Below are positions 4,458 to 20,249 of a stretch of 20,351 nucleotides of DNA, piece after piece. The stretch comes from a virus (taxonomy: Duplodnaviria > Heunggongvirae > Uroviricota > Caudoviricetes), in IMG/VR virus record IMGVR_UViG_3300021440_000016, one strand, 5' to 3'. The first letter of the stretch is position 1. The number at the start of each line of letters is the position of its first letter. A program made the position numbers and the translations under genes. The notes beneath the pieces are model-generated. The model worked only from the letters and a program-made list of their open reading frames with translations. It ran no database searches and was not told the origin of the DNA.

Positions 4458-6518
4458 TTACCCACTTGATGGAGGGGCCATTTGCGTTGCTAATACCGGA
4501 TTATTCTTAAAGGGAGCTGGGGGACTAGCTGGTTCTGGTAACTTTACGTTTTCTATGCCCGGACCCTGCATCTGCTGCCCCGGTACTACTTGTCCAGAAC
4601 CCGGACTCATCTCAGCAGGAATAGGACTATTTGCTACGGCTCCGGCTGGAGGAGCGGGTGGAGCAGGAGGAGCCACAGGCTGCTCACCGATAAGCTGGAG
4701 AAGAGCTGGATCTGTATTACGTAGGAACTGTAAATGCTCATTAATATGATTTAACACTGTTTTAACAAGTTCCACATCACGACGAAGTTCAGGATCAGCA
4801 AGGACGGCGCGATGCTCCATGATATGCATTTGATGTTTATCGAGAGGTGAGGTAATAACGGACTGACCTTCCATCATCTGTTCGTTTTCGGATTTAATAA
4901 GCAATAGCTCCGACATTTCACCTTCGTACATAGCTTCGATCTTGCCGGTAGAGATGACTTGGAAGTACTGCTGAGGATCAGTAATAAGTTTCATTTGAAG
5001 CATTTGCTCAGCCATCTGTACACGACCGGCAATAGTACGAGAAAGAGGATTGCCAATGTCCACAACTACTCGGTTGATGGACGAAATTTTCTCACCCGTG
5101 AATTCTTTTAGTAGTGGGCGGTTATTTTTACCTACAACAGCTACCATCTTAGGGGTAGTAGCGAAGTCTTTTAGGATCTGAATAACAGAAGTGCCTACAT
5201 CTTCAACAAGCTTCACGTAGCTCTGTTGTAGTCCTGAGATAAACTGTAGGGCCATGGACTGAACTAGGGCAAGAGCGGTGCCGGACTTTAGGGAGGCTTC
5301 GGGGTTACCTCGGGCTACTGAGTTAACACCTGAAATAGTTTCAGCATTCTGAATAACCATTTCTAGGAATTTAAAGACTTCGGCTGGAGTTTCAGTTAGA
5401 TTGAGCGGTTCTGGTTTTTCATTACCTTCGATGATGTTCATCTGACCCTGAAGCGTGTTGACGTTGATATCCGCGCCACGAGGAACGAAGATATTCTGCA
5501 CAGCAAACGCATTCTGGTTGGTCATGATAGAGCCAAATAGGGCGTTGATGGACTCCTGTAGGGGGTAAATATCGAACATGGGGGTATAACCGTATGGAGT
5601 TCCTAGAATATCACTGGGAGCAATACGGAAAATAGGAAGGCTGCGGTAAGGCATCTTTGTATCTAGAAGTACGCAGTCGCTGTCCAAAAAGAGCATATAG
5701 CGACCTTCTGGGAGAGCGTCCGTCTGCCTGTGGTAGAATTCATAAACGGGAATATCGTCGGTATTATCGTTAGAGAAAACAGCTAAACGATAAATTGCTG
5801 ATTGATTTTTTGAGGGAATAGCGTTAATCTTATTTCTGAGTTCTGGGAACTTAGCAGCTAAGTCAAACCTATTCTTAAAGGTTCGGCACATGATCCAGTC
5901 ATTGTCCCAGCTTTCCTTAGTTCCATCTACAACAACGTCGAAAGGGGTTAAATTGGAAAATTCTAGTTCACCATCACGGATGGCTTCGCCCGTATCTGGG
6001 TCTACGTCAAAGATATCTCCGCCAGAAGCATTCCAAGAAAGTTTAACATATCCAGCACCTAGAACAATTGCTAGTTCCGCTGCTTTCTTTAAACATTCCT
6101 CAAGGCGCTTTTCGCGCATATAGTATTCAAGAATGCCGTTGGCCAGATAGGTCTGCGCCATTGACTTATAATCTGTATTAATAGCTCTAGCTTCCATGAT
6201 AGGTCTATTAGACGTAATCATGACATAAATGTGCTGAGCTAGATTTCGATAGTGGTTTACAGGAAAGGTTACAAGTTCGCCCTGCTCGCCCGCAAATCCT
6301 ACAGAGTGACCATACCCTACCGTGCGGTCAAAATTACCGTGGTAGAAAGCCCACGACCTTGATAGTTTGTCTAAATAGGCGTTAGCTCTTAATACATTAA
6401 AAAAGGAATCTGCCTTTTCTAATAGGACTGAGGCTGCGTCCTGCGCTTCTTTAGCCGCAAAATAGACATCTTGAGGTTTCGTATAACCTTCGGTATGAGT
6501 TGAATCTTGATAGTCCAT
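4458..6518 (-). CDS. Portal protein
   Basis: 686 aa immediately downstream of TerL, with the size, helical pattern and Pro-rich disordered C-tail of P22-like portals. Confidence 0.85.
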   Translation of the reverse strand: MDYQDSTHTEGYTKPQDVYFAAKEAQDAASVLLEKADSFFNVLRANAYLDKLSRSWAFYHGNFDRTVGYGHSVGFAGEQGELVTFPVNHYRNLAQHIYVMITSNRPIMEARAINTDYKSMAQTYLANGILEYYMREKRLEECLKKAAELAIVLGAGYVKLSWNASGGDIFDVDPDTGEAIRDGELEFSNLTPFDVVVDGTKESWDNDWIMCRTFKNRFDLAAKFPELRNKINAIPSKNQSAIYRLAVFSNDNTDDIPVYEFYHRQTDALPEGRYMLFLDSDCVLLDTKMPYRSLPIFRIAPSDILGTPYGYTPMFDIYPLQESINALFGSIMTNQNAFAVQNIFVPRGADINVNTLQGQMNIIEGNEKPEPLNLTETPAEVFKFLEMVIQNAETISGVNSVARGNPEASLKSGTALALVQSMALQFISGLQQSYVKLVEDVGTSVIQILKDFATTPKMVAVVGKNNRPLLKEFTGEKISSINRVVVDIGNPLSRTIAGRVQMAEQMLQMKLITDPQQYFQVISTGKIEAMYEGEMSELLLIKSENEQMMEGQSVITSPLDKHQMHIMEHRAVLADPELRRDVELVKTVLNHINEHLQFLRNTDPALLQLIGEQPVAPPAPPAPPAGAVANSPIPAEMSPGSGQVVPGQQMQGPGIENVKLPEPASPPAPFKNNPVLATQMAPPSSG

Positions 6519-6596: not shown

Positions 6597-8063
6597 TTAT
6601 TTTTTACTTTTTATATTTAATATTTTGTAGAAGTTATTTAAATCCATCCCCATCTGCCTACTTCTCATGCCTAATGGATTAGCGACGTGAGCATCCTCTG
6701 ACCTTAAGTTCAGATCATAGTGAGCTGGGTATGGGTTTTTTGTATAAACTATTGATCTTATTAAATAAATACAGGCGTCTGCCGCATCATAATGGGAGTC
6801 GTCGGGGGAGCGAGCAAACTTTTTACCCGTAGAATCCCATTTGACATTACGTAAATGTCTAATAAGTGTTTGACATCGTGGGTGAATTATAACTTTTTTG
6901 CTGGAAAGCATGACTCGGAGGTTGTTAATGGCCGCTTCCTTGTCATCCTTTTTAGCAGCTAGGAAGTTAATTTCACCTCCACTGGTTCGAGCTATCTCGC
7001 TCATAACAATATAGTTAATGTCGCTGACCCTTAGATAAGGCTTCTTGAGTTCGTGGGTTAGCGGATTGGTCCAAAGTGCAGCTTCTTTTTCTTTAATGAC
7101 AGAACAAAGTCTTGGGACCTGTACATCGGTTCCGCTTACCACGTATTCGTCTTCAATAATAACCTTACCAGCCCTAAAATCGTAGTAAGCAAAAAGGACC
7201 ACTGTCTGGTCTTGGAACCCTAAGTCCATAGATTCATAGCAATCGTAGAAGGGAGGTCTAGGCCACTCGCGAACTATTTCTTTTTCTAGAGCGGGAGTGA
7301 ACTCAGGAATGACCATGGTCTTTGAATCTTTGAGAATTTGACAAAGATACTCGCGTTTAAAGTAATCTGAGTCTTTTCCACCAGCTTCAATCTCTGCTTC
7401 TTCTATTTGTTGTTTAGATAACATGGAGTTATCGTAGATAGTTTTGAGTACTAACGAGTTTTTAAGCTCGGCTTCTTCAATAATTTTAACGAAATCGTGA
7501 TCTGGGTCTTTGGGGGGAGTGCCAGAGATAAGAACCTTACCCTTAGTGGTAAGCGTAGTAGGTAGAATTACTGATTTAAGAGCATCTTCAAGGCCGGTAA
7601 CGTCCTGCGCTTCGTCAATAATAGACAGTTCGGAGGCGCCACCGCGAAGACGCTCTACGTGACCGGACTCGGAGCCGGCCAACTGAATTTCTGAGCCGTT
7701 GGGAAAGTAATAAGTGTAGTCCTTACTGCTAAACTGAGGCTTAATATCCTCTGGGCAGCTCTTAATAACGTCGGCCATGATTCGCCTAAGAATCATATTA
7801 ATCTGAACTTTAGTTGGTGCTAAGAACTTAACTACCGATCCCGGCTTTTTTAGGCAGGTTTCTACTGCAAGTACGCACAAAGTAAAGGTTTTACCACTAC
7901 GTCGAGCTAGAAGCCACGTGTTCGTTTTGTGGGTAGTGTTGTGAAAGAGGTTATAAAGATCTTTTTGGTGAGGCTTTAAAAGCCATACGAGTACGCCAGA
8001 ACGCCATAAGGCATCCTCGGCTTGCTTTCTCGAAATTTTTGGCTTTTTTTCGACATTACTCAT
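6597..8063 (-). CDS. terL: Terminase large subunit
   Basis: Walker A-like ARRSGKT, Walker B IIDEAQ, motif III SGTP, and RNase H-like nuclease motifs SMDLG and HYDAADA. Confidence 0.95.
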   Translation of the reverse strand: MSNVEKKPKISRKQAEDALWRSGVLVWLLKPHQKDLYNLFHNTTHKTNTWLLARRSGKTFTLCVLAVETCLKKPGSVVKFLAPTKVQINMILRRIMADVIKSCPEDIKPQFSSKDYTYYFPNGSEIQLAGSESGHVERLRGGASELSIIDEAQDVTGLEDALKSVILPTTLTTKGKVLISGTPPKDPDHDFVKIIEEAELKNSLVLKTIYDNSMLSKQQIEEAEIEAGGKDSDYFKREYLCQILKDSKTMVIPEFTPALEKEIVREWPRPPFYDCYESMDLGFQDQTVVLFAYYDFRAGKVIIEDEYVVSGTDVQVPRLCSVIKEKEAALWTNPLTHELKKPYLRVSDINYIVMSEIARTSGGEINFLAAKKDDKEAAINNLRVMLSSKKVIIHPRCQTLIRHLRNVKWDSTGKKFARSPDDSHYDAADACIYLIRSIVYTKNPYPAHYDLNLRSEDAHVANPLGMRSRQMGMDLNNFYKILNIKSKK

Positions 8064-8490
8064 TAGAATTTTCTAGAGCAGCTAATAGCTCTTTAGGATC
8101 AATAGCTTCTATCTTAGCTTCGCTGTCAGAATCCTTCTTTTTATTAAGGGAGAGAAGAATATCATTGTAGATTTGAACTTTTTTTGTTTCTTCTAGGGTC
8201 AACTCGCCCTGCATGGCCATCACACGAAGCATTTGTAATTGGGTGCGGGCGATGATTTCAGAATCAGAGGCCCCAAGATCTACACTAGCGACGAGTGAAC
8301 TTTCTTTATTAACCTGAAGGGGGTTAGTTTGCTCAAGAAGCTCTTCGAGATGCTTTTTGTCTTCCTCAAGCTTTGTAAGCTTTTGGGTTAGATTTTGTAT
8401 AACCTGAAACTGAGAGCGAGCGAAAGCCTGTAATTCTACAGACGTTTTATACTCTGAAAGCATGGAATCGATGGTGCTGATGGAACTCAT
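8056..8490 (-). CDS. Coiled-coil protein, candidate terminase small subunit
   Basis: 144 aa, overlaps the terL start and is helical; assignment is by position only. Confidence 0.5.
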   Translation of the reverse strand: MSSISTIDSMLSEYKTSVELQAFARSQFQVIQNLTQKLTKLEEDKKHLEELLEQTNPLQVNKESSLVASVDLGASDSEIIARTQLQMLRVMAMQGELTLEETKKVQIYNDILLSLNKKKDSDSEAKIEAIDPKELLAALENSNE

Positions 8491-8780
8491 TAGAAGCCTC
8501 GTGTCTGCTGCTTAAGTCCTGTGGCGGTGCGAAGAGAAGATACAGAGTTTTTAAGGTCACTTGTGATAAGTTGCTGATCTTTAATCTGCTTTTCAATATC
8601 TTCAAGCTGCTTGGTGATCTTGACTGCTTCATCAGACATGGATTTATACTCAAGAAAAACATAAAGGCTAGAGAGGGCGGCTATGACGGCCACTGATTCC
8701 CAATTAACACCTAAAATTAAAGACTTAAGGCAAAACGCGGTCATAAGACCGGCGGGTAATAGTTTAATTTTCCCTGTCAT
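8490..8780 (-). CDS. Two-TM membrane protein with coiled-coil tail (holin-like candidate)
   Basis: Two hydrophobic segments in the N-terminal 45 aa, then heptad repeats; first gene of the late operon. Confidence 0.5.
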   Translation of the reverse strand: MTGKIKLLPAGLMTAFCLKSLILGVNWESVAVIAALSSLYVFLEYKSMSDEAVKITKQLEDIEKQIKDQQLITSDLKNSVSSLRTATGLKQQTRGF

Positions 8781-8900
8781 ATCAATCCCTTATTCATTAT
8801 TTTTAGGGCAATTTAAGAACATAGACCGATTTAATCACGTACTAGACGTATTGCTATACTAATAGCTGGCGGTAGCGAATTCTTAGCTGACCTTATATAA

Positions 8901-8908
8901 AGTTGTTA
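8901..8908 (-). promoter_or_regulatory. TAACAACT motif heading the packaging operon
   Basis: Exact copy in the intergenic region upstream of 8780. Confidence 0.6.
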
Positions 8909-8949
8909 ATCTGTTCAAAAACTAGAAACCTAACTAAACAACTATAATT

Positions 8950-9141
8950 ATGAATACTTATCAGCTTATTAAGAAAATATGCCCCCATTGCAGTGTAAGC
9001 ATCCTAGATGATCATCCAACTCAGGGGCATTTATGGGATAAGTGCGGATTTTGTGGATATTGCGAACAGAAAGACTTGGAAAGAAGTAAGAAACTCAAGG
9101 AAAAGCAGGCGATGTATGAACCTAACAGAGAAGATCTCTAA
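8950..9141 (+). CDS. Zn-ribbon protein
   Basis: CPHC...CGFCGYC motifs. Confidence 0.65.
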   Translation: MNTYQLIKKICPHCSVSILDDHPTQGHLWDKCGFCGYCEQKDLERSKKLKEKQAMYEPNREDL

Positions 9142-9559
9142 GTACTTTACACTCGGCGAGGCTACTTACCTTCCCAAGTGGAACACTAATCATATTCCTA
9201 CAGAAGAAGAGCTAACCAATCTTAGGCGCCTAGCAGCCGTTTTAGACGCCGTTAGGGACTACATAGGCTCTCCTATCATCGTACACGTTTGGATTCGTCC
9301 TGAGGCCGCTAATTGCGTAAATTCGGATCACAACGGCCAGTCCTACAACAAACTGGTTGGAGGTGCCTCTAGGTCTCTACATCGGTATGGTTTAGCCTGC
9401 GACTTTCATTTTAAAGAAATCGGCTGCGACGATGCTAAAATACTACTCATGCCTAAGCTAGAGGACTTCGGCCTCCGCATGGAGGATAACGGGGCAGGGG
9501 CCGGATGGATTCACTTAGATCTTGGCAAGCCTAACCCAAACCGCTTTTTTAAACCTTAG
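9116..9559 (+). CDS. Peptidase M15 family Zn-dependent peptidoglycan hydrolase (endolysin)
   Basis: SLHRYGLACD (SxHxxGxAxD), upstream Arg and WIHLD motifs, and a typical ISKYFTLGE N-terminus. Start reassigned from 9008 to ATG 9116. Confidence 0.85.
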   Translation: MNLTEKISKYFTLGEATYLPKWNTNHIPTEEELTNLRRLAAVLDAVRDYIGSPIIVHVWIRPEAANCVNSDHNGQSYNKLVGGASRSLHRYGLACDFHFKEIGCDDAKILLMPKLEDFGLRMEDNGAGAGWIHLDLGKPNPNRFFKP

Positions 9560-9708
9560 TAATGCCGGAGTAGTGGGTCGAGTATCTCTAGATCTAGTAA
9601 AGCTTTATACGCTCGGCTATAGACGCCTAGGGGATTAAAAACATCCTCCCGGTTCAGGTAGTTAGCGACCAACTGATCGATAATCGCATCATTGTGTGGA
9701 TCTCTCAT
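9556..9708 (-). CDS. 50-aa hypothetical protein
   Basis: Own translation MRDPHNDAIIDQLVANYLNREDVFNPLGVYSRAYKALLDLEILDPLLRHY; overlaps the upstream stop (ATGA) and has an RBS. Confidence 0.6.
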   Translation of the reverse strand: MRDPHNDAIIDQLVANYLNREDVFNPLGVYSRAYKALLDLEILDPLLRHY

Positions 9709-9893
9709 CCTCTGATCCTTCGCATTACCGTCTTGACTTTACTAGCATGACACTCTGGGCAGACCCGACCGTTCCATTCCCGATCAAATTGATCAACCCA
9801 GCGCTTATTAACCCCATCGGGGTACTTGCCTTTGAGTATGCGCTGCTTCTCCTGCTCACACACTTTACATTTTCTTAGATTGATTTCTGTCAT
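9705..9893 (-). CDS. Zn-finger protein (CKVC...CPEC)
   Basis: Two CxxC pairs. Start reassigned to ATG 9893, which couples with the upstream stop. Confidence 0.7.
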   Translation of the reverse strand: MTEINLRKCKVCEQEKQRILKGKYPDGVNKRWVDQFDREWNGRVCPECHASKVKTVMRRIRG

Positions 9894-10051
9894 ATTACAC
9901 CCAATACAGTAAATACTAGTTCTAGAGTATGGTAGGTCTGAACACAGGTACACCCAGTTCTTCCGTAGTACGCCTCTACATTTGCTAGAGGGCAGGATAG
10001 CTCTGAGTACCAGTCGAGCATCCTAAGCAGTCTCATCATTTCAGCATCCAT
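9890..10051 (-). CDS. Hypothetical Cys-containing protein
   Basis: 3' part of track ORF 9890..10234, likely starting at ATG 10051; the upstream part overlaps another gene. Confidence 0.5.
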   Translation of the reverse strand: MDAEMMRLLRMLDWYSELSCPLANVEAYYGRTGCTCVQTYHTLELVFTVLGVI

Positions 10052-10079
10052 ATAGATAGTTGTTTCTAGAAAGTTAAGG

Positions 10080-10295
10080 TTATTCAGAATCTTTGTCAAT
10101 AAGAATTCCGGCCACAAAGCTACAACGAGCACATTGCAGCTTGCCGTCCGCTGGTCTATACGACCATTTGTGGGGCCTACAGACCTCTTGCCGCTGCTCA
10201 AGGTAGGCATTTGTCCAGAATTCTCTCTGAGCATTAACCCAGTTGAAGTAGAAACCTAGACATGCCACACAGAATAAGATAAAAACAATAATCAT
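10080..10295 (-). CDS. Membrane-anchored small protein with CxxH...CxxC motif
   Basis: N-terminal hydrophobic helix; CRPH...CARC. Confidence 0.65.
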   Translation of the reverse strand: MIIVFILFCVACLGFYFNWVNAQREFWTNAYLEQRQEVCRPHKWSYRPADGKLQCARCSFVAGILIDKDSE

Positions 10296-10453
10296 AAGTA
10301 TTTCCAGTCAATTAGCCCGACATTCTCAAATATCTCAAATAGAAGATTTAGGTCTTTTGCTTCAAGTTCTGGGTTCTCTTCTAAGAAGTAAGCCCATAAT
10401 TTCCTTACTATTTTTCCACCTTCTTCGTCGTACGGGATGGTCCAAACTGACAT
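10292..10453 (-). CDS. 53-aa hypothetical protein
   Basis: Own translation MSVWTIPYDEEGGKIVRKLWAYFLEENPELEAKDLNLLFEIFENVGLIDWKYL; GGAG RBS; ATGA overlap with the next gene. Confidence 0.65.
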   Translation of the reverse strand: MSVWTIPYDEEGGKIVRKLWAYFLEENPELEAKDLNLLFEIFENVGLIDWKYL

Positions 10454-10811
10454 GAAATCTCCTAAAAATAATTTTTTTAAAAATTTTTATCTTTTGGAAA
10501 TCATTCGTAAAATTCCATTTCTTAGACGATTTCTAGAAAAACGATTTAACATCTATTTATAGTTATAGCTTCTGTAAGTTAGAGATAGATACTCAGAACT
10601 TTTTAATAAATAATTAAAAACTTCTTCGTAAATAAAGATTAATTAATAAACAAAGCTAAACATAAATCGATCAAGGCAACAGGTGTATTAATAGTAAGTT
10701 AATATACTAAGCTCAAGAAACATCCTACTTAGAGCTGAACACATGCAGCGTTCTGACCGTGTTCTGCAGTATAAGTTAATCTTGTGCTTAATACTATTAT
10801 CAATATCTGTA

Positions 10812-11000
10812 TCAGTCTGCAGCATCGTACCACCCCACTACCACATCAAGATCATGTAATAATCTTAGAATACGGTTACAATCACAATCCTGATTGTAAA
10901 TATAAGAAGTATTACAAGAATTAAGTACTGTTTCTAGTATCTTTACTTCCATTTCCCATTCATCTCTAAGTTCATATAATTCAAAGAAATCTTGTATCAT
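10812..11000 (-). CDS. Hypothetical acidic protein with CDC motif
   Basis: 62-aa ORF, co-oriented with neighbours; resembles ORF 9890-10051 in style. Confidence 0.55.
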   Translation of the reverse strand: MIQDFFELYELRDEWEMEVKILETVLNSCNTSYIYNQDCDCNRILRLLHDLDVVVGWYDAAD

Positions 11001-11090
11001 TTTGCACCTACTCTAAAAGTGAGCGAATGCGAACTTTTATTATTCTTATACTACTTCTTACTCTACTTCTTAGTGGTACTCTTACGAAGC

Positions 11091-11615
11091 TTAATAGCTG
11101 CGTCGCTTCGCTCGACTCGCTGTGACGCTATCGTGAGAGTGTATTTTATAGATTGGTACCCCTGAAGGGTAATACTGAGCTATAAACTGATTAGCTAGAT
11201 CCAAGGTATTAAATACACCAACTAAGACTTCAGACCTACCCTTAGAGACTAGGCGTACCTCTAGGAGGTACTCATCATTGGAATATATCTTGGGGGTATA
11301 CTCCACAGGTTGATACTCTTTATAGAACGTATACCCAAGGTGTTTATAATAATCATACCAATACTTATAGCGAAGCCTAGCTTCTACAGAGTTAGCGTCT
11401 GTTACTGTTTCTAGAATTACTACATCTAGCTGTTTGTATTCTTTTCGTAATAGTTTGTAGCTATTGTTTCTAGACTTAGCTAATCGAAGTACCCTAGCTG
11501 CAGTAGTTAAAGCATCAGTACTACGCACTAAGTATACTCTTTTGTTTCTAGAGTTAACTAACCCTAGAATACAACTTACCCCTGACAGGCTATATAGTTC
11601 TTTAATTAGCTTCAT
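11091..11615 (-). CDS. Degenerate GIY-YIG-like nuclease domain protein
   Basis: N-terminal SGVSCILGLVNSRNKRVYLVRS resembles the GIYxxxNxxNxKxYIGxS pattern with degenerate signature residues. Likely start is ATG 11615. Confidence 0.45.
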   Translation of the reverse strand: MKLIKELYSLSGVSCILGLVNSRNKRVYLVRSTDALTTAARVLRLAKSRNNSYKLLRKEYKQLDVVILETVTDANSVEARLRYKYWYDYYKHLGYTFYKEYQPVEYTPKIYSNDEYLLEVRLVSKGRSEVLVGVFNTLDLANQFIAQYYPSGVPIYKIHSHDSVTASRAKRRSY

Positions 11616-11628
11616 AGTACTCAATTAC

Positions 11629-11636
11629 AGTTGTTA
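11629..11636 (-). promoter_or_regulatory. TAACAACT motif upstream of the GIY-YIG-like ORF
   Basis: Exact copy at the start of the leftward transcription block. Confidence 0.55.
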
Positions 11637-11953
11637 AGTAAAACTATCTATTACTTCCTACAATTAGCTATACCGATCTAATTCTTTTCAGTACTTATCT
11701 TCACCTACTAGACTAACTCAGCTCCGCAAATCGAGTTTTAGACAGTTTCAGAGGAGAGGGGGGGGATAGGGAGAGGGGAGGTATTGTTTCTAGAGTAGGA
11801 GCTGGAAAATGTTCGTGGGTGCTATACTCTCGTCGACTGCAGTCCAGAAGTAACACCCCCCCCCTACCTCATACCTCAATGATATCCACCACTTACTATA
11901 CACCACTACTATTTACCAATGATATCAACAGCTTATACCTAGCTACTTAATCT

Positions 11954-11968
11954 TGATAATGATTATCA
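11954..11968. promoter_or_regulatory. Perfect 7-1-7 palindrome TGATAAT-G-ATTATCA (Fur-box consensus)
   Basis: Exact match to the 7-1-7 Fur-family operator in the central non-coding region; the binding protein is not established. Confidence 0.55.
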
Positions 11969-12330
11969 GAATTGTTTTTATATCTATTGGATTTGTTTAG
12001 ACTTAATCAGATCCGTTGATTGATATTGATTCTAGCCCTCATTGTCAATCTTACCTTTCCCCTATTGTGTCAGACACTACCGAGTCTCAGCTGACACTGA
12101 ACTGTTTAAATTTAGTCCCGTTAACTGAATCGGTTTAGTGCCCGGGAGGAGTAGGGTCGACTTTCTGTATATAATGATACAAGAGCGGCGGGTGAGCTAC
12201 GCTTTACAGGTAGACGGGAAGGGGATGAAATAGCGTGATTCTTCCCTCCTCTCTTTTTTTTTCCCACAATCTCCCCAGCTTAACCCTTTTTCCTCCCCGT
12301 GTCTCAACTGACACAATTGTGGAAAAAACC

Positions 12331-12660
12331 CGGATCGACGATGCTGGAATTGTAACGCAGCGATGAAGGGCACGACGCCCCGAGCTAAAGCACGAAGCGC
12401 ACCCTAGAGGTTGCAGATAGCCCTTCGGGCCTGGGTATTAAGATCCGACGAAGCAAGCGCTGCGGCAGGTAAGGGGATGCAAGCTTAACGGTTACTGCCT
12501 TAAATGGAAGCCGTTGAAAAGAAAACCAGCGCAACCCGCGTACGAGCAAGGCAAGAGCCTGCAGCGAAGCGGAAGTCAAATAGCCCGCACATGATCGAAG
12601 GGCACGGATAGAATCAGTGTAACACTGGCATATATCCCTGCAGGTAGGTGTCCGGGAAGA
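12331..12660 (+). ncRNA. Putative structured non-coding RNA/leader of unknown class
   Basis: GC-richer than its flanks, with no credible plus-strand ORF. Hairpins include a C(UUCG)G loop, and long-range complementarities are 12331-36/12442-47, 12356-62/12458-64 and 12343-47/12526-30. Confidence 0.55.
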
Positions 12661-12715
12661 TTGAGTGTCTGTGTTCGCAGTGACACACTGAAGAGGCGAA
12701 AGCCGAAACACTCAA
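12661..12715 (+). ncRNA. Type III hammerhead ribozyme
   Basis: Stem III TTGAGTGT/ACACTCAA; GUC cleavage triplet 12667-69; stem I TGTGT/ACACA; core CTGAAGA 12688-94; stem II GGC-GAAA-GCC; GAAA 12705-08. All conserved core nucleotides are present. Confidence 0.95.
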
Positions 12716-12726
12716 CGAGGTACGTT

Positions 12727-12903
12727 ATGAATAACGATGATAAGATTCGAAAGATTAAAGAGAAGATGGACAAGCTGGCATCTAAGGGGCGAGATTTACA
12801 GTATAAACGTGATCAGCTGCAATTTAAATGGGAAGAGTTAAGCGATAAGCTTAGAGAACTTGGAATGCCTGTAGATTATGATTGGTACGATGCCCAGTCT
12901 TAA
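12727..12903 (+). CDS. First early gene, 58-aa coiled-coil protein
   Basis: ATG 12727 with GAGG RBS. The track's upstream TTG start lies within the ribozyme and is unlikely. Confidence 0.75.
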   Translation: MNNDDKIRKIKEKMDKLASKGRDLQYKRDQLQFKWEELSDKLRELGMPVDYDWYDAQS

Positions 12904-12920
12904 CAAAGAGGGATAATAAC

Positions 12921-13130
12921 ATGCTTAAACTAATTAAGGTGAGCGTTAACAAAGATTCTTATTATGTTAGCATTTACACTAAAGTAAACAAATTCGGATA
13001 GGAATCTGAACGCTATCACTTGCATCGGGATGCCTCTAATGCCTCACAGGTTAACGATGCCCATGCCACTGAGATTGTTAAGAGAATTGCTAAGCATGTG
13101 AATTCTATTGAGATTCAAGAGGCGGCCTAA
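12921..13130 (+). pseudogene. Early ORF interrupted by an in-frame TAG at 12999-13001
   Basis: GAGGG RBS and 26 codons, then TAG, then 42 further sense codons ending in a TAA that overlaps the next ATG. Confidence 0.55.
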
Positions 13131-13189
13131 TGGAATATCTAGGAATCTTTCTAATTATAGTAGGAATTACAATAATTACAAGAGGTTAG
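13130..13189 (+). CDS. 19-aa hydrophobic peptide
   Basis: MEYLGIFLIIVGITIITRG; TAATG coupling with the upstream ORF. Confidence 0.5.
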   Translation: MEYLGIFLIIVGITIITRG

Positions 13190-13190
13190 T

Positions 13191-13349
13191 ATGTCAATTC
13201 AAGAAATTGAGAATGAGATTTCCTTTGTAAAACGGCAACTTGCCCGCCGCGATCTTCCGCAGTGCAAGGTGATCGACTTAACTATTCTACTGATTGAATT
13301 GCAGTCTAGCTTAATTCATAAGCTAAAGGAGTTTAAGTATGCAGCTTAA
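13191..13349 (+). CDS. 52-aa helical hypothetical protein
   Basis: GAGG RBS; own translation MSIQEIENEISFVKRQLARR... Confidence 0.65.
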   Translation: MSIQEIENEISFVKRQLARRDLPQCKVIDLTILLIELQSSLIHKLKEFKYAA

Positions 13350-13458
13350 TAAAGTGTTTGACTTTGTAGTAACCCTTCTAATCGCTTCGCTTGCCTTTGG
13401 CAGTCTGCTTGCCGTCGCCATGCTTATCGGAGCAGCGTCTACCTTAATTGGAGGTTAA
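13339..13458 (+). CDS. 39-aa membrane peptide, paralog A
   Basis: AAGGAG RBS; MQLNKVFDFVVTLLIASLAFGSLLAVAMLIGAASTLIGG; similar to 14330-14473. Confidence 0.7.
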   Translation: MQLNKVFDFVVTLLIASLAFGSLLAVAMLIGAASTLIGG

Positions 13459-13459
13459 C

Positions 13460-13561
13460 ATGAACGAAAAAGAACTGTCAACTAAAGAAATTGATGATTT
13501 GTTTGAAGCGCTTGATACTGCAATTAATGAGATTGAGTCAAGCGATAATAACTCTAAGTGA
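13460..13561 (+). CDS. 33-aa acidic peptide
   Basis: GGAGG RBS; MNEKELSTKEIDDLFEALDTAINEIESSDNNSK. Confidence 0.55.
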   Translation: MNEKELSTKEIDDLFEALDTAINEIESSDNNSK

Positions 13562-13603
13562 TCTTTTTTTGTATCTTAATACCTGACCAAAGAGGTTAAC
13601 TAT

Positions 13604-13993
13604 ATGAATACTAACACGATGCATTATTTTATTCTCTCCGCTGAACTGAGTACCCGTCCGGGCCTTACCAATGCCGCTAATACGCAGGATCTTAGGGACA
13701 AGCTTAGCCGCATGGGATACCCCTTCACGGAAGCGGAAGGTTTCTATAACGGCTCTAAAGAAGTGTCCTTTGTTGTTGGTTGCACCTTTGCCGATGTCGG
13801 CAAGCTTAGGCAGGGCATTATGTCTCTTGCGGAATCTTATGGACAGGAGTCAATTGCTTATGTCGACAATGAATCCCGCTTGACTCTTGAATACCCTAAT
13901 GGTATCCGCGAGTATATCGGCAAGCTCGAACTTGATGATAAGGCGCTTGACTTTTATACTAAGATTAATGGTAACAAGTATTCCGCTAAGTGA
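13604..13993 (+). CDS. Phage SAM lyase (T3 SAMase family), paralog A
   Basis: By-eye alignment with T3 SAMase: FILSAE..N (T3 VLVSAF..N), GFY (GCY), conserved E, YGQES (WEQDC), LEYPNG (LVYAKG) and C-terminal YT..NG.KY. Confidence 0.75.
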   Translation: MNTNTMHYFILSAELSTRPGLTNAANTQDLRDKLSRMGYPFTEAEGFYNGSKEVSFVVGCTFADVGKLRQGIMSLAESYGQESIAYVDNESRLTLEYPNGIREYIGKLELDDKALDFYTKINGNKYSAK

Positions 13994-14005
13994 AAGGATT
14001 GGAAT

Positions 14006-14320
14006 ATGAAGTCAATTAAAAAAATTAAGTTCACCGCCAAGCTTTTTACCGAAGGCTCATGGGGCACCCGCAGCATTGCCGGCAAGCATCCTTGCACCAT
14101 GGAACTTTTCGGCGGTACCGTATCCACCGACGGCCATCGGAAATATTATCAAATTGAGTTTGTTGCCGGGAAGGATGGCTGTGTTGGCGTAGAACATATC
14201 GGTCTCACAGTTAACGAAAATAATGAATTGGTCGACTATGATGGGGTCTTTAGTATTCCTTTGGAAGGTATCAAGTTGATTGAATCTGTTGGTATTATCG
14301 TATCGGATGATTTTCGGTAA
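14006..14320 (+). CDS. Hypothetical early protein
   Basis: 104-aa ORF with RBS in the early operon. Confidence 0.75.
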   Translation: MKSIKKIKFTAKLFTEGSWGTRSIAGKHPCTMELFGGTVSTDGHRKYYQIEFVAGKDGCVGVEHIGLTVNENNELVDYDGVFSIPLEGIKLIESVGIIVSDDFR

Positions 14321-14329
14321 GAGGATTTT

Positions 14330-14473
14330 ATGAAGAAGATTAACACTAAAGCTTGCCCTCTTATGCAAAAGCTAGTTGATATCGTCCTAACCGTCCTAAT
14401 CGCCTCTATAGCCTTTGGAAGCTTAGTTTCAGTAGTTGTGATTATGGGTGCTATATCCCGCGCTCTTAACTGA
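14330..14473 (+). CDS. 47-aa membrane peptide, paralog B
   Basis: GAGG RBS; contains VLTVLIASIAFGSLVSV, matching VVTLLIASLAFGSLLAV of paralog A. Confidence 0.7.
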   Translation: MKKINTKACPLMQKLVDIVLTVLIASIAFGSLVSVVVIMGAISRALN

Positions 14474-14488
14474 TTAAGGAGATTATTT

Positions 14489-14878
14489 ATGAATAACAAT
14501 GTGATGCATCATTTTATTGTGTCTGCTGAAAAGTCTAATCGTCCGAGCATGGTTAACTCCGCCAACACTAAAGAGTTGACCCTAAAGCTTTCTGAGCTTG
14601 GATATCCCTTTACTCAAGCACAAGGATGCTATAACGGAACTACCGAAGTATCCTTTATCGTCGCTTGTCAATTCAAGGATATGCCTAAGCTGAAACGTGA
14701 ATTGCTTGCAATTGCCGATAGTTATGCTCAAGATTGTATCGCATATGTGGATAATGAATCACGCTTGACGTTGGAATATAGCAATGGTATCAGTGAGTAT
14801 ATCGGTAAGTTGTCTGTTGACAACGAAGCGAGCGACGCATATACAAGCGTCAATGGAATGAAGTATAGCGCTAAGTAA
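14489..14878 (+). CDS. Phage SAM lyase (T3 SAMase family), paralog B
   Basis: Same length as paralog A, with 80/129 identical residues by ungapped hand count; has GCY and QDC motifs as in T3 SAMase. Confidence 0.8.
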   Translation: MNNNVMHHFIVSAEKSNRPSMVNSANTKELTLKLSELGYPFTQAQGCYNGTTEVSFIVACQFKDMPKLKRELLAIADSYAQDCIAYVDNESRLTLEYSNGISEYIGKLSVDNEASDAYTSVNGMKYSAK

Positions 14879-14892
14879 AAGGACTAAACAAT

Positions 14893-15093
14893 ATGAAGAC
14901 TTATAAAAAGATTGACCTATTCTTTAATGGGGACTATCTCTGTTCTACGAATCAGTCTAAAACATTGAAAGATGCAAGAAAAAAATACGTTGAGTCTCTA
15001 GAACATAGGGGCCATACGCTTGGAAAGATATCCTTCCTTGAAGAGTATATTCTAAAACATAGTACATTGATCAAGTGTAAGTTTTCGAAATGA
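14893..15093 (+). CDS. Hypothetical early protein
   Basis: 66-aa ORF with RBS; its N-terminus (MKTYKKI) resembles that of 14006 (MKSIKKI). Confidence 0.7.
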   Translation: MKTYKKIDLFFNGDYLCSTNQSKTLKDARKKYVESLEHRGHTLGKISFLEEYILKHSTLIKCKFSK

Positions 15094-15100
15094 GGATTAT

Positions 15101-15439
15101 ATGAAAAAAATTAAACGCGAAGTTATTGACCTTGTCCCTGTTGGCCTTTGGCTTGTGTCCTTTGACCGGATATGGGATATTAACGAAGAGACTGGCCATG
15201 AGCGGATTAGTGATATTGAGCCCATGGAATTGAAACGAGTTACCTCCAAGAGTTACCTTAGCCTGTGTGAAGACGTGGTTAATAAGGATATTAATTGGAA
15301 TACCGACCATGTGAACGACGATACTCATGATTTTAGGCCGCGCTTGTTTAAGACTAAGAAAGAAGCACTTGAACATATCAAGTATACAGTGAATCGGTTT
15401 AAGAATCCCCAGCCATGGGAATCTTTTATTAAGTTCTAA
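15101..15439 (+). CDS. Hypothetical early protein
   Basis: 112-aa ORF with GAGG RBS. Confidence 0.75.
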   Translation: MKKIKREVIDLVPVGLWLVSFDRIWDINEETGHERISDIEPMELKRVTSKSYLSLCEDVVNKDINWNTDHVNDDTHDFRPRLFKTKKEALEHIKYTVNRFKNPQPWESFIKF

Positions 15440-15449
15440 AGGAGTTAAT

Positions 15450-15683
15450 ATGCGAACGTTTGAAATTATCGAATGGGTAACGCTAGCGAGCGGCGATACT
15501 GTACGACGGGTAAAGGAGACTCGGGAGTTTAATAACCTTAGACATGCAATGACCGTCCTTACTTATGAGTGTTATGCTCCATCAATGATTGACTATCGTA
15601 TCACTAACAATGAGTTAGTTGCTTTTAATGTTGACACTCCCGATGTGAAATTGTACATCATCCGGGAATACAAGGAGATTTAA
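15450..15683 (+). CDS. Hypothetical early protein
   Basis: 77-aa ORF with AAGGAG RBS. Confidence 0.75.
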   Translation: MRTFEIIEWVTLASGDTVRRVKETREFNNLRHAMTVLTYECYAPSMIDYRITNNELVAFNVDTPDVKLYIIREYKEI

Positions 15684-15684
15684 T

Positions 15685-15945
15685 ATGTCGAACGACAATA
15701 CCTATAACGGATGAGCTAACTGGGAAACTTGGAATGTAGCCCTTTGGATTGATAACGATGAATTCCTTTATGGAGCCGCACGAATGTTCCGACATAAGTT
15801 TAGGCCTTATAAAGAATTTGTGGAATACATGAAAAGCTTTGATTCAGAAATCGGGGAAATCCGTTTGCAAACTCCGGATGGCGTTGCATGGAATGATTCA
15901 GGGCTGGACACCGATGAATTGGATAAGATGATTCAAGATCTTTGA
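15685..15945 (+). pseudogene. Member of the common phage YNGWxNxETWNVxLW family, interrupted by TGA at the first Trp (15712-14)
   Basis: MSNDNTYNG*ANWETWNVALWIDNDEFLY...ELDKMIQDL; the motif is recognisable and the stop falls where W is expected. Confidence 0.75.
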
Positions 15946-15998
15946 ATAGTTGAGTCGAAAGATCGAAGATATTGACACAAACATTGAGGATCTTTAAT

Positions 15999-16199
15999 AT
16001 GACACGTTACCAAGTGTATGTAGAGAATGAACCGATGCAAGATTTTACTAACATCGATTCAGCTATTGATTATGCATCTAGTCATGTGTATTTAGATCCT
16101 AAGTTAGGACGCGCTGTAAAGTTTGAACTAGAAAATAATAAGTCGGTTAAGTATAGCTATGGGTTTAAAAGTGTAGAACTAAAGCCCATTGAAAATTAG
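15999..16199 (+). CDS. Hypothetical early protein
   Basis: Track ORF 15972..16199; ATG 15999 has a GAGG RBS. Confidence 0.65.
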   Translation: MTRYQVYVENEPMQDFTNIDSAIDYASSHVYLDPKLGRAVKFELENNKSVKYSYGFKSVELKPIEN

Positions 16200-16241
16200 T
16201 CCCGCGCACGGAAGCACTAGAAGTTGCGGAGAGTTTTTAAC

Positions 16242-16321
16242 CGGGCTGTATCCCCTTCCTCTTATAAAGGATAGAAAGGGTAGTTGGTAACACGTGGGTT
16301 CAAATCCCACCAGCCCGACCA
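16242..16321 (+). tRNA. Atypical tRNA-like RNA, anticodon UAU (Ile-like), non-canonical arm order, CCA encoded
   Basis: Acceptor CGGGCTG/CAGCCCG plus A-CCA; T arm GTGGG-TTCAAAT-CCCAC; anticodon arm TCCT-CTTATAA-AGGA. There is no D arm 5' of the anticodon arm, and AGTTGGTA occurs 3' of it. Confidence 0.8.
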
Positions 16322-16329
16322 TTTTATTT

Positions 16330-16446
16330 ATGATTGAATACCAATACAAATGCCCTAAATGTAATAAAACCATTACATTAGGGAGCAGACACAACTACTA
16401 TAAGTGCCCCTATTGTAAAAAAGCTAAGATGTATATTGTCAAGTAA
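16330..16446 (+). CDS. 38-aa Zn-ribbon protein
   Basis: MIEYQYKCPKC...YKCPYC; two CxxC motifs. Confidence 0.6.
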   Translation: MIEYQYKCPKCNKTITLGSRHNYYKCPYCKKAKMYIVK

Positions 16447-16456
16447 AGGAGTAAGT

Positions 16457-16714
16457 ATGTACGTTATTAAAGCCCTATTCCGAGTAGATCCTAATGCCTA
16501 CACTGTACAGGAATTTGTCCTTAATAAGGAAAGTCAATGGGTAATCGCCACTGGGGATGCTATTATGTTCTATAATGTTGAAAGCGCAGTGAATTTTGCT
16601 AAGGGTTCTAAAATTATAGAAAGTCTATCTAGACTCGGATCGGGATCAATGCCTTATATCGTCGGGCCGCGCGGCGGGAAGTATTCAATCTTTACCGGGA
16701 GACTTTTAAAATGA
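16457..16714 (+). CDS. Hypothetical early protein
   Basis: Track ORF 16436..16714; ATG 16457 has an AAGGAG RBS. Confidence 0.7.
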   Translation: MYVIKALFRVDPNAYTVQEFVLNKESQWVIATGDAIMFYNVESAVNFAKGSKIIESLSRLGSGSMPYIVGPRGGKYSIFTGRLLK

Positions 16715-16947
16715 GCGGGGAAAAAGAATTTATTTATGAATATGAGCACTATGTAAAGACTATGCCCTATAGCGAAGTGATGATGCATATGAAGCTGACA
16801 GGTACTAAATGTCGTATCAGCTTTCAAGGTGTATCAGTTAAAGTGTGACCAGATATTGACCGTGGTGGATACGTTACTGTAACTCCCAGCGAAGCTGGCC
16901 TACATTGGGACGACGAAGAGAATCGGTATTACTTTCGTAAGGAGTGA
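16711..16947 (+). pseudogene. Early ORF interrupted by an in-frame TGA at 16846-48
   Basis: 45 codons, TGA, then 32 sense codons (PDIDRGGYVTVTPSEAGLHWDDEENRYYFRKE) ending 2 nt before the next ATG; the downstream part has no start or RBS of its own. Confidence 0.55.
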
Positions 16948-16949
16948 AT

Positions 16950-17396
16950 ATGTTTAAATCTATTAACGTTGAAAAGAAGTTTTCGAAACTGAATAAAGAG
17001 CTTAAGAATGAATACGGAAGTAAGGCGGTTCAGGCCATCTTCAATGGAGATCAATACGGCGCCGAACATTACTCAAGGAGGGGAGCTAAAGGATTTTCCT
17101 TTAGCGTCCCTTACCGTCCGCGCTTGCGTATTTTTAAATCATCTAGCGGCAAGCTTGTGTTTAACCCTTATACCGGTCATGGTACTAGCTATGATTGGTA
17201 TTCTATTGCCCAAGTGTTTAATGGTAAATTGATTCTAAATACTTATCGTTATAGCGTTACCACTAATAAACATATCCAGGAACTACATTCCCTCTTTAAT
17301 CAACTCGGTCTGAAGTATCAGACCATTGAAGCACCTAGAGGATTGCAGGACCTAGATCAAGCAATGCGTTCTAACACTCTCGCGCTTTACGGTTAA
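16950..17396 (+). CDS. Hypothetical phage protein
   Basis: Track ORF 16944..17396; ATG 16950 has an AAGGAG RBS. Confidence 0.75.
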   Translation: MFKSINVEKKFSKLNKELKNEYGSKAVQAIFNGDQYGAEHYSRRGAKGFSFSVPYRPRLRIFKSSSGKLVFNPYTGHGTSYDWYSIAQVFNGKLILNTYRYSVTTNKHIQELHSLFNQLGLKYQTIEAPRGLQDLDQAMRSNTLALYG

Positions 17397-17536
17397 AGTT
17401 CCTAGAACCGACTCAGCTAACTATGACTTGATCTTTGAACATAACTACGCTATGTATATGGCGGATGCGTTCAATATCAAGCCTATGTTTCTAATGATCT
17501 ATACGGAGAATTGAATCATAAGAATCGAGGATCAGT

Positions 17537-18097
17537 ATGTCTGGCTGCAGGCCGCTTACTAGGGAAGAATCGGATAAAGTTTTATCTCTGCTTAAAACAC
17601 AGCGAGATAAGACTTTGTTCATTCTTGGTATTAAATCAGGATTTCGTATCTCCGAATTGTTGACTATCCGAGTCAGGGATATTATCCAGAATGATCAGGT
17701 AGTTAATAGAATCAAGGTGTCTAGGATGTACATGAAAGCTAACAGGACAAGAGAAGTAGCTCTTAATCCCGTTGCTAAAGAATACATTCTGGAGTTGATT
17801 CTTCGGGACAAGTTGGAACCGAATCATTATCTATTCCGCTCTAGGAAAGGAGACAACAAGCCTATCACGCGGGTACAAGCTTGGTATGTGCTGAAGCAGG
17901 CATTCAACACGGCAGGGCTACTCGGGACTACTGGTACACATTCCATGCGAAAGTCCTTCGGCATGAATGTCTATAGGGCTTTAGGTAATGATCTAGTAGC
18001 CACGCAGAAAGCGTTGGGCCATTCGGACATTGGCTCTACTATTGCATATCTTCCCACGGACGACGAGGAGATTGACAAGGTGATTGTAAATCTGTAG
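17537..18097 (+). CDS. Small tyrosine recombinase (catalytic domain only)
   Basis: GFRISE (R), K in VSRMYMK, THSMRK (H-x-x-R), LGHS (H) and TIAYL (Y); 186 aa. Confidence 0.92.
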   Translation: MSGCRPLTREESDKVLSLLKTQRDKTLFILGIKSGFRISELLTIRVRDIIQNDQVVNRIKVSRMYMKANRTREVALNPVAKEYILELILRDKLEPNHYLFRSRKGDNKPITRVQAWYVLKQAFNTAGLLGTTGTHSMRKSFGMNVYRALGNDLVATQKALGHSDIGSTIAYLPTDDEEIDKVIVNL

Positions 18098-18100
18098 TAT
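18072..18100 (+). promoter_or_regulatory. Sigma70-type promoter driving the downstream tRNA-like RNA
   Basis: TTGACA (18072-77), 17 nt, TAGTAT (18095-100). Confidence 0.65.
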
Positions 18101-18180
18101 AGAACTGCTACGTATATAGATGTTCAGTGACGAGCAGACACAACGTGTCCTTGTCGCCGGAAGTCCGGACCGTAGCAAAG

Positions 18181-18245
18181 CAGTAGGTAGTTTAATAGGT
18201 TAAAACACCGGAAGGAGACTGCAGGTTCAACTCCTGTCCTACTGC
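18181..18245 (+). ncRNA. tRNA-like RNA with the anticodon arm reduced to a 2-bp GGAA tetraloop
   Basis: Acceptor CAGTAGG/CCTACTG (extends to 10 bp); TA linker; D arm GTTT-AATAGGTTA-AAAC; CC-GGAA-GG; variable AGACT; T arm GCAGG-TTCAACT-CCTGT; no encoded CCA. Confidence 0.8.
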
Positions 18246-18301
18246 TTATTAATTTATCCTATCGTTAAAAATTAGTCCCGGCAAAAACAAGGGCATGATT
18301 T

Positions 18302-18335
18302 GGGGCGGGTTTAAAAGACTTGCCCCTTTTTATTT
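18302..18335 (+). terminator. Rho-independent terminator
   Basis: GGGGCGGGT/ACTTGCCCC stem followed by TTTTTATTT. Confidence 0.85.
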
Positions 18336-18336
18336 C

Positions 18337-18365
18337 TTGACGCCCGCTGAAGCCTTTTGTATAGA
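18337..18365 (+). promoter_or_regulatory. Putative sigma70-type promoter of the response regulator
   Basis: TTGACG, 17 nt, TATAGA; the predicted +1 falls at or next to ATG 18372. Confidence 0.45.
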
Positions 18366-18371
18366 AGGGCT

Positions 18372-18713
18372 ATGAAAATCCTAATTGTAGAAGATGACGA
18401 TGCTATTTGTCAAACACTGAAATTAATCGTGCAGATGAACGCTCACTTTGCCGAATGCGCTATGACGATTAAAGATGCAAAAAGGTTGTTGACTGAAAAT
18501 CAATACGATGCTATATGCCTAGATCTATTGATTCAAGGTGAAATGTCAACAGATCTTTTAAAATTAAAAGGGAAATCAAAAGCAATAGTGCTGTCCGCTT
18601 GGCATCAAGCTCCGGCTATTGCAGCTGAGTACTCTCTTGATTTGATAAAAAAACCATTCGATATCGAAGAGCTTGAAAAAAAGCTGTTGACAAAAGACAC
18701 TGACCTGAACTAA
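18372..18713 (+). CDS. Single-domain response regulator (CheY-like receiver)
   Basis: KILIVEDD acidic pocket, phospho-acceptor D in ICLDLL, S in IVLSA, and KKPF; no output domain. Start reassigned to ATG 18372. Confidence 0.88.
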   Translation: MKILIVEDDDAICQTLKLIVQMNAHFAECAMTIKDAKRLLTENQYDAICLDLLIQGEMSTDLLKLKGKSKAIVLSAWHQAPAIAAEYSLDLIKKPFDIEELEKKLLTKDTDLN

Positions 18714-18758
18714 TACAGAACGCGCTGCAATAACGCAGTACTAAAGGAGAACGTAAAA

Positions 18759-19223: not shown

Positions 19224-19246
19224 AAGCCGCTTGCTTATGACTGAAT

Positions 19247-19283
19247 GCCCCGGTAGGATGCTTCTTGCCGGGGCTTTTTATTT
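19247..19283 (+). terminator. Rho-independent terminator
   Basis: GCCCCGGTAGGA/TCTTGCCGGGGC stem followed by TTTTTATTT. Confidence 0.88.
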
Positions 19284-19333
19284 GAAAACGTTAACTTCGC
19301 ATATCCATCTTTCATACTCTAGGAGGATCTAGT

Positions 19334-19582: not shown

Positions 19583-19695
19583 TGTTTCTTCCAATTCTCG
19601 CTGTAGCGAGTCTCTATTGTCTATTCACTGGCTCTATTGGAATTGGAATTCTTCTAGCTTGCGTTGTGGCTTTTGTTCAGTGGACCTTCGAATAG
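19582..19695 (+). CDS. 37-aa membrane peptide
   Basis: GAGGAGG RBS and TGATG coupling; MFLPILAVASLYCLFTGSIGIGILLACVVAFVQWTFE. Confidence 0.65.
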   Translation: MFLPILAVASLYCLFTGSIGIGILLACVVAFVQWTFE

Positions 19696-20247: not shown

Positions 20248-20249
20248 GT

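What the first reader, a model, noticed from the sequence alone, without database searches (positions are those of the whole stretch)
12331..12669. ~330-nt structured RNA of unrecognised class whose 3' end would be cut by the hammerhead
Seen: a GC-richer, non-coding stretch with crossing helices CGGATC(12331-36)/GATCCG(12442-47) and CGCAGCG(12356-62)/CGCTGCG(12458-64), i.e. a pseudoknot. Other elements are GCTGG(12343-47)/CCAGC(12526-30), GGGC/GCCC hairpins, a C(UUCG)G loop at 12420-30, GGCAGGTAA/TTACTGCC, AACGGTT/AGCCGTT and a GGATA-CAGTG/CACTG-TATCC domain. GAAGGGCACG occurs twice (12365, 12597), and each copy can pair with GCCCTTC (12420-26), suggesting alternative folds. I could not match it by eye to RNase P, tmRNA, SRP, group I/II introns or common riboswitches. 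Inference: a novel phage ncRNA (antiterminator, protein sponge/decoy or switch) matured by a dedicated ribozyme.
Basis: partly seen in the sequence, partly recalled or inferred. Interest (0 to 1): 0.75.

Follow-up and report, generated by a model that had tools for sequence, protein, structure and literature searches.

The report
Orphan phage leader RNA before hammerhead
This gene-free 330-base stretch of an uncultured freshwater phage sits at the start of the early transcript, just before a self-cutting hammerhead ribozyme; related phages fill the same slot with other, unrelated folded RNAs, so it is probably a released non-coding RNA, but it has no known relative and its fold and job are unproven.

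Summary
The stretch is non-coding, the GC-richest of its region and U-poor. It matches no Rfam family, and I found no homologue anywhere, so covariation is untestable.

The support is contextual. In related 85-95 kb phages the slot between early promoter and first gene is either empty or holds a 220-480 nt GC-rich, ORF-free leader. These leaders are mostly unrelated in sequence and end in a twister, a type II hammerhead or a terminator; in one clade two hammerheads excise the RNA and its helices show compensatory changes.

'Dedicated ribozyme' is not supported. In every lineage the cut lies 48-60 nt before a start codon, four times directly behind an ordinary gene, so the ribozyme's conserved job is making mRNA 5' ends, as described for halovirus HF2.

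Best reading (about 0.5): an accessory structured RNA released by the hammerhead, acting in trans, target unknown. This scan has noted similar hammerhead-flanked RNAs in other genomes. No expression data.

The parts
12329..12656 (+). Candidate structured non-coding leader RNA domain, closed by the helix 12329-35/12650-56; 5' end of the transcript unknown
   Evidence: GC 0.55, U 0.15; non-coding; ensemble fold; no Rfam match; no homologue found
12661..12715 (+). Type III hammerhead ribozyme, predicted cut after C12669
   Evidence: RF00008 37 bits, E 1.7e-6; stems III, I, II of 7, 6 and 3 bp around an intact core
12716..12903 (+). Ribosome-binding site and first early ORF (58 aa, ATG 12727), 57 nt after the cut
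12420..12427 (+). Strand with three alternative states: pair with 12365-71, pair with 12596-603, or local UUCG hairpin
   Evidence: 12596-603 preferred, p 0.95
12464..12517 (+). Possible H-type pseudoknot module (12464-72/12492-99 crossing 12487-91/12511-15)
   Evidence: only 12487-91/12511-15 is populated in the nested ensemble (p 0.99); untested by covariation
12602..12641 (+). 3' stem-loop domain (12606-10/12633-37 enclosing 12615-19/12623-27)
   Evidence: pair probabilities 0.99
12626..12642 (+). sigma54-like motif with spacing one base too long; probably not a working promoter
   Evidence: only N8 site against 40 N7 sites in relatives; lacks their AT-rich flanks
12297..12331 (.). DNA element shared with relative L001, where it lies about 100 nt upstream of the early promoter; marks the upstream edge of the GC-rich block
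   Evidence: repeats D4 and I1
11850..11875 (.). Conserved C-tract of the strand-switch region, near which many relatives' contigs end
11091..11615 (-). Conserved 174-aa gene of unknown function, used as synteny anchor
13604..14878 (+). Two SAM lyase genes (13604-13993, 14489-14878) in the early operon led by the hammerhead
   Evidence: PF23780, E 2.6e-16 and 7.6e-18

Best explanation
The stretch is an accessory non-coding RNA in the leader slot of the phage's first early transcript. Transcription starts somewhere upstream of 12329 (inferred; promoter not found). The leader folds into a self-contained domain whose two ends pair (predicted), which lets the hammerhead fold undisturbed (predicted). 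The hammerhead cuts after C12669 (inferred from an intact consensus core). This gives the early mRNA, which includes two SAM lyase genes, a defined 5'-OH end 57 nt before the first start codon, which is the ribozyme's conserved job. It also releases the leader as a separate RNA of about 340 nt or more with a 2',3'-cyclic phosphate. The released RNA most likely acts in trans early in infection as a lineage-specific decoy or scaffold for a host factor (inference only; target unknown).
For: Non-coding, GC-rich, U-poor on the + strand. Of 17 other lineages with this region, six carry a 220-480 nt ORF-free leader in this slot, 7-18 GC points above their locus, while AT-rich lineages such as L029, L040 and L207 run from promoter straight to the RBS: the slot is optional. 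Two relatives show that the slot yields stand-alone RNAs: in L038/L044/L046 two type II hammerheads cut out about 270 nt on both sides, with 97% of cells paired and 3 compensatory pairs in the middle domain (18 of 500 shuffles; only 3 sequences); in L020 the leader ends in an intrinsic terminator before the first ORF. The closest relative with this region, L001 (terminase 67%), has a twister at the same place (RF03160, E 1.2e-9). The cut lies 48-60 nt before an RBS-led ATG in 10 of 12 sites, across three ribozyme types. Hammerhead stem III p 0.93 with the native leader against 0.59 +/- 0.38 with shuffled leaders. Precedent: PMC3088659.
Against: No homologue, so no covariation for this sequence. 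Helix counts and folding energy at chance level. The relatives' leaders are not detectably homologous to it, so they argue by position only. No promoter identified upstream; the family's sigma54-type site is absent. Only one ribozyme, so no defined 5' end. Nothing points to a target.
Confidence: 0.5

Rival explanations
1. Folded leader that acts only in cis during transcription (pausing, processivity or antitermination in the manner of HK022 put, or insulation of ribozyme folding) and is discarded after the cut.
For: Position at the start of a long early operon; self-contained fold that leaves the hammerhead intact; the 5' strands pair first and are displaced later in prefix folds, as expected of a co-transcriptional element.
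Against: No intrinsic terminator on + between 12727 and 18300; in L020 the leader ends in a terminator and in the L038 clade it is cut out on both sides; many relatives manage with no leader.
Confidence: 0.25
2. DNA-level control region, not an RNA: the early promoter is the sigma54-like site at 12626-42, transcription starts near 12654, the hammerhead trims about 15 nt, and the GC-rich block is enhancer or spacer DNA with the repeated 10-mer as a protein site.
For: Relatives start this operon from sigma54-like sites; the window's only similar site lies 20 nt before the hammerhead; single-sequence structure statistics are at chance.
Against: Spacing is one base too long, against 40 of 40 correctly spaced sites in relatives (strict spacing of sigma54 sites is from my own knowledge); it lacks the AT-rich upstream spacer and melting region seen in relatives; the motif lies inside two well-populated RNA helices; the U-poor, purine-rich strand bias fits an RNA.
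Confidence: 0.1
3. Functionless relic: remains of a decayed gene, mobile element or older ribozymes, transcribed only because it lies in the leader.
For: Orphan sequence; no thermodynamic signal; the family's leaders turn over quickly; ribozyme-like fragments occur in the L032 leader.
Against: Composition stays far from the AT-rich background; no frame resembles phage codon use; a related slot shows compensatory changes.
Confidence: 0.1
4. A ligand-sensing or catalytic RNA of undescribed class, for example a SAM/SAH sensor tied to the downstream SAM lyases, or a second ribozyme.
For: Two SAM lyases downstream; 12457-62/12527-32 recalls the SAH riboswitch pseudoknot; alternative pairings exist; genes near hammerheads and twisters are where new ribozyme classes were found (PMC6765202, and own knowledge).
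Against: No Rfam riboswitch or ribozyme model matches at E up to 10 in 441 nt; the short hallmark motifs I recalled for SAH, SAM-II, c-di-GMP-I, RNase P, group I and twister are absent; no predicted coupling to the hammerhead or RBS.
Confidence: 0.05

Closest known systems
Hammerheads at the start of phage early operons: HHphage of haloviruses HF1/HF2 and the ardA-flanking hammerheads (Perreault et al. 2011, PMC3088659)
   Same: Ribozyme a dozen bases before the first start codon of an early polycistronic transcript (13 nt in HF1/HF2, about 11 here); anti-restriction genes downstream (ArdA there, SAM lyases here); proposed role in cutting long phage transcripts into mRNAs.
   Different: The passages I read describe no long folded leader upstream; here the family swaps between type III, type II and twister at one locus.
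Large phage-associated ncRNAs ROOL and GOLLD, and raiA (PMC5737381; bioRxiv 10.1101/2024.12.08.627333)
   Same: Gene-free, GC-rich, multi-helix candidate RNA of unknown function in a phage.
   Different: No Rfam match; shorter than ROOL and GOLLD (own knowledge); no homologues or covariation; ends at a ribozyme.
T7 early transcript processing by RNase III (own knowledge)
   Same: The first transcript is cut between leader and genes to give defined mRNA ends and a released leader RNA.
   Different: Here the cut is RNA-catalysed and leaves 5'-OH and cyclic phosphate; the leader is longer and varies between lineages.
Bdellovibrio merRNA (PMC3627812)
   Same: Precedent for a stand-alone folded RNA of about 400 nt proposed to act as a sponge; relatives of this phage carry FliA-like promoter motifs like those reported for Bdellovibrio.
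   Different: merRNA holds a c-di-GMP riboswitch; none is detected here; the host of this phage is not established.

Membership tests
Type III hammerhead (12661-12715) | Consensus core with GUC triplet | tested here: met
Type III hammerhead (12661-12715) | Stems I and II capped, stem III open | tested here: met
   7, 6 and 3 bp; a competing hairpin 12678-90 is predicted at p 0.5
Type III hammerhead (12661-12715) | Rfam gathering score | tested here: not met
   37 bits against 48.5, but E 1.7e-6
Type III hammerhead (12661-12715) | Self-cleavage at 12669 | not testable with these tools
   needs in vitro transcription
Any Rfam 15 family (12331-12661) | Covariance-model match | tested here: not met
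   best E 0.76 in a 441-nt scan, unrelated families; none in the whole-window scan
ROOL / GOLLD / raiA-type large ncRNA | Match to the family model and covarying helices | tested here: not met
   no model match; covariation untestable for lack of homologues
SAH, SAM-II or c-di-GMP riboswitch | Conserved binding-pocket motifs and model match | tested here: not met
   (motifs recalled from memory)
RNase P, group I or group II intron, twister, twister sister, pistol | Catalytic-core motifs in order and model match | tested here: not met
   only isolated 5-6 nt fragments without the required helices
CsrB/RsmZ-type protein sponge | Many GGA motifs in hairpin loops | tested here: not met
   7 GGA counted in 12325-12661, about 9 expected from composition
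Leader RNA of the L038/L044/L046 clade | Match to a model built from that clade | tested here: not met
   model R2: no hit inside 12331-12661 at E up to 1, while the L021 leader gives a partial hit of 13 bits
Structured non-coding RNA in general | Covariation or probing supports the helices | not testable with these tools
   no homologues; the five assemblies that carry the neighbouring gene were shown as one place, identical to the window
Protein-coding gene | ORF with RBS, phage-like codon use or homologues | tested here: not met

The most novel reading that the evidence does not exclude
This phage family keeps an exchangeable RNA slot at the very start of its first transcript: lineages load unrelated folded RNAs and release them with interchangeable ribozymes (hammerhead II, hammerhead III, twister) or a terminator, so that an RNA effector against host defence appears before any phage protein. 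The 12329-12669 RNA would be one such effector of a new structural class, possibly with two folds.
Probability: 0.25. Interest if true: 0.75.

Novelty: new variant of a known kind. Interest (0 to 1): 0.45.

Why it matters
The biological purpose of most phage self-cleaving ribozymes is open (PMC6765202). This family offers a natural comparison at one locus: no ribozyme, a ribozyme behind a gene, a ribozyme behind a folded leader, and two ribozymes around a folded RNA, using three ribozyme types. The constant distance to the next start codon points to mRNA 5'-end formation as the shared function and makes it testable. If the released leaders are working RNAs, they are undescribed early phage effectors. 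For this particular sequence the case is circumstantial until homologues or probing exist.

Tried and rejected
Homologue searches, all empty or chance: INPHARED blastn; plasmids; exact 20-mer in IMG/VR; blastn and nhmmer against 163 terminase-related loci; 28 whole viral records; gapped motif scans in IMG/VR, whose hits were mostly coding and none resembled the RNA; a motif scan of GTDB genomes; phages sharing the hammerhead's stem II, whose upstream DNA is unrelated; protein clusters of neighbouring genes, all singletons. The closest phages (terminase 83-84%) have contigs too short to reach the locus. Sequencing runs: no RNA holder listed; the second DNA run does not cover 12088-12800, which shows nothing. 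My error: model R1 was built on a hand-written structure that was out of register, so searches are void; rebuilt as R2 and repeated. A shared 9+5-nt motif with equal spacing between 12488-12513 and the L047 leader (pairwise z 3.3, 1 of 36 comparisons) was not supported by the model or the motif scan. An upstream copy (12615-27) of the hammerhead's competing hairpin suggested allosteric control, but the best leader-ribozyme duplex is no stronger than shuffles (P 0.43). The long helix 12045-64/12645-64 is within chance for 1.4 kb. Terminase hits in GTDB were in unrelated MAGs and do not name a host. Literature searches found no description of this RNA.

Full report
Setting. The window is part of an uncultured tailed phage: terminase large subunit 6597-8063 and portal 4458-6518 on the minus strand, endolysin, an integrase-like gene at 17537. 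The same DNA is on an 85.5-kb ENA contig and in a freshwater metagenome, identical over the 8.4 kb compared. Cultured phages are distant (terminase under 30%), but uncultured relatives of 85-95 kb are many. The finding lies in the 1.1-kb gene-free strand switch between a conserved 174-aa gene (11091-11615, minus) and a rightward operon of small genes starting at ATG 12727, which includes two SAM lyases.

The observation. All listed motifs are present at the stated places. The block is the GC-richest of 8000-20351 and has only 15% U. It is not coding: no gene is called there and its ORFs score below all 19 real genes in a codon test. Rfam finds only the hammerhead at 12662-12714. The helices themselves are no more than chance gives for this composition, and folding z is -0.7 to -1.0; local windows show no signal either. 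This is weak evidence in both directions, since the hammerhead scores -0.45 and pseudoknots are not modelled.

Fold. They dominate in shorter prefixes and cost only 2-6 kcal/mol in the full RNA, so two folds are possible, but the number of competing helices is not unusual (P 0.19). With the native leader the hammerhead folds as it does alone (stem III 0.93, against 0.59 +/- 0.38 with shuffled leaders), and no unusually strong leader-ribozyme duplex exists. This argues for insulation and against a switch that controls cleavage.

Homologues. None was found by any route (see Tried and rejected).

Relatives at the same position. Using the terminase and the 174-aa gene as anchors, I read this region in about 17 other lineages. 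Most share a C-tract, and many a sigma54-like site with strict spacing, several with paired upstream palindromes and an AT-rich spacer. After the promoter, AT-rich lineages go straight to a ribosome-binding site (L029, L040, L207). Six lineages insert a 220-480 nt ORF-free leader 7-18 GC points above their locus: L001, L020, L021, L032, L038/44/46 and L049. These end in a twister (L001), a type II hammerhead (L021, L032, L038 clade) or a terminator (L020); for L049 the contig ends before this is clear. In the L038 clade two hammerheads cut out about 270 nt whose middle domain is 97% paired with three compensatory pairs, on three sequences only; part of it recurs in L021. The leaders are otherwise unrelated to each other and to the window's. 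The Rfam scans of the L001 and L020 leaders found no family either.

What the ribozyme is for. In 10 of 12 sites the cut lies 48-60 nt before an RBS-led start codon (57 in the window); the two exceptions are the upstream members of the double-hammerhead pairs. Part of this distance is simply the length of the ribozyme's 3' piece. In L017, L023, L149 and the second L032 site the ribozyme follows the stop codon of an ordinary gene by 22-35 nt, with no leader RNA at all. So the ribozyme belongs with the downstream gene. Perreault et al. (PMC3088659) describe the same: a hammerhead 13 nt before the first early ORF of haloviruses HF1/HF2 with the transcript end mapped next to the cut, hammerheads before the anti-restriction gene ardA, and processing of phage transcripts into gene-length mRNAs; they did not detect circles. 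That a 5'-OH end slows RNase E-type decay is my own knowledge, not tested.

Promoter. The window lacks a correctly spaced sigma54-like site. One with a single extra base lies at 12626-42, which raises the rival that transcription starts at about 12654 and the block is DNA only. Its flanks differ from the family's promoters, so I give this 0.1. A weak FliA-like candidate lies at 12098-12125 and a perfect -10 hexamer at 12170-75 without a -35; neither is established. The released RNA could therefore be 340 to about 540 nt.

Mechanism and basis. Shown: composition, non-coding status, absence from Rfam, the hammerhead consensus, the family pattern. Predicted: the closed domain and the undisturbed ribozyme. 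Inferred: transcription, cleavage, release, and action in trans. The case for a stand-alone RNA comes from L020 and the L038 clade, where the slot's content is separated from the mRNA by a terminator or cut on both sides. It is an argument by position, not by homology. I put it at 0.5, a cis-only leader at 0.25, DNA element 0.1, relic 0.1, sensor or catalytic RNA 0.05.

Novelty. A hammerhead heading a phage early operon is known. An exchangeable leader RNA released by interchangeable ribozymes was not found in the papers I could search, but earlier unchecked notes of this scan report similar hammerhead-flanked RNAs in other phages, and I took the 'interchangeable cargo' wording from one of them before testing it in this family.

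Noticed in passing
L038:1850-2118, L044:5001-5270, L046:3054-3323 (minus strand): Two type II hammerheads excise an RNA of about 270 nt with a conserved folded middle domain of no Rfam family; its ends (5'-OH, cyclic phosphate) would suit circularisation. Better supported than the window's own RNA; part of it recurs in L021:891-941.
   Followed up: partly
L020:4150-4630 (minus strand), approximate: About 480-nt ORF-free, hairpin-rich leader (z -2.3) ending in an intrinsic terminator; no Rfam match.
   Followed up: partly
L049:1-600 (minus strand), approximate: At least 440 nt of GC-rich, ORF-poor sequence in the same slot, unrelated to the others.
   Followed up: partly
L001:2338-2388 (minus strand): Twister ribozyme directly before the first RBS, behind a 220-nt folded leader; a 9-mer from it recurs in the L020, L032 and L047 leaders, unexplained.
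   Followed up: partly
terminal regions of L018, L020, L023, L032, L038, L046 and others: Clusters of sigma54-like motifs in both orientations next to the C-tract, paired palindromes like activator sites, and FliA-like motifs before early genes in L029, L040, L041, L103, L194; fits a host rich in sigma54 and sigma28 control such as Bdellovibrionota, not proven.
   Followed up: partly
window 12109-12120, 16193-16204, 18269-18280: A 12-nt motif occurs three times (0.12 expected with one mismatch allowed, found post hoc), each time as the 5' side of a possible hairpin next to a non-coding RNA element (leader, tRNA-like 16242, tRNA-like 18181 with terminator).
   Followed up: partly
window 12068-12097 and 12297-12325: Repeated and inverted DNA elements (D4 and I1) resembling the upstream palindromes of relatives; possible protein-binding sites.
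   Followed up: no
window 16242-16321 and 18181-18245: Two atypical tRNA-like genes seen by Rfam but not ARAGORN; noted separately by this scan.
   Followed up: no
window 11091-11615: 174-aa protein with about 880 related clusters and no Pfam or PHROG match, usually the first gene of the leftward arm beside the C-tract.
   Followed up: partly
window 18372-18713: Stand-alone response-regulator receiver domain (PF00072) in the early region.
   Followed up: no
L182:12160-12181 and L183:4460-4481: Hammerhead cores with the same stem II in unrelated phages, in a longer conserved context after a gene.
   Followed up: no
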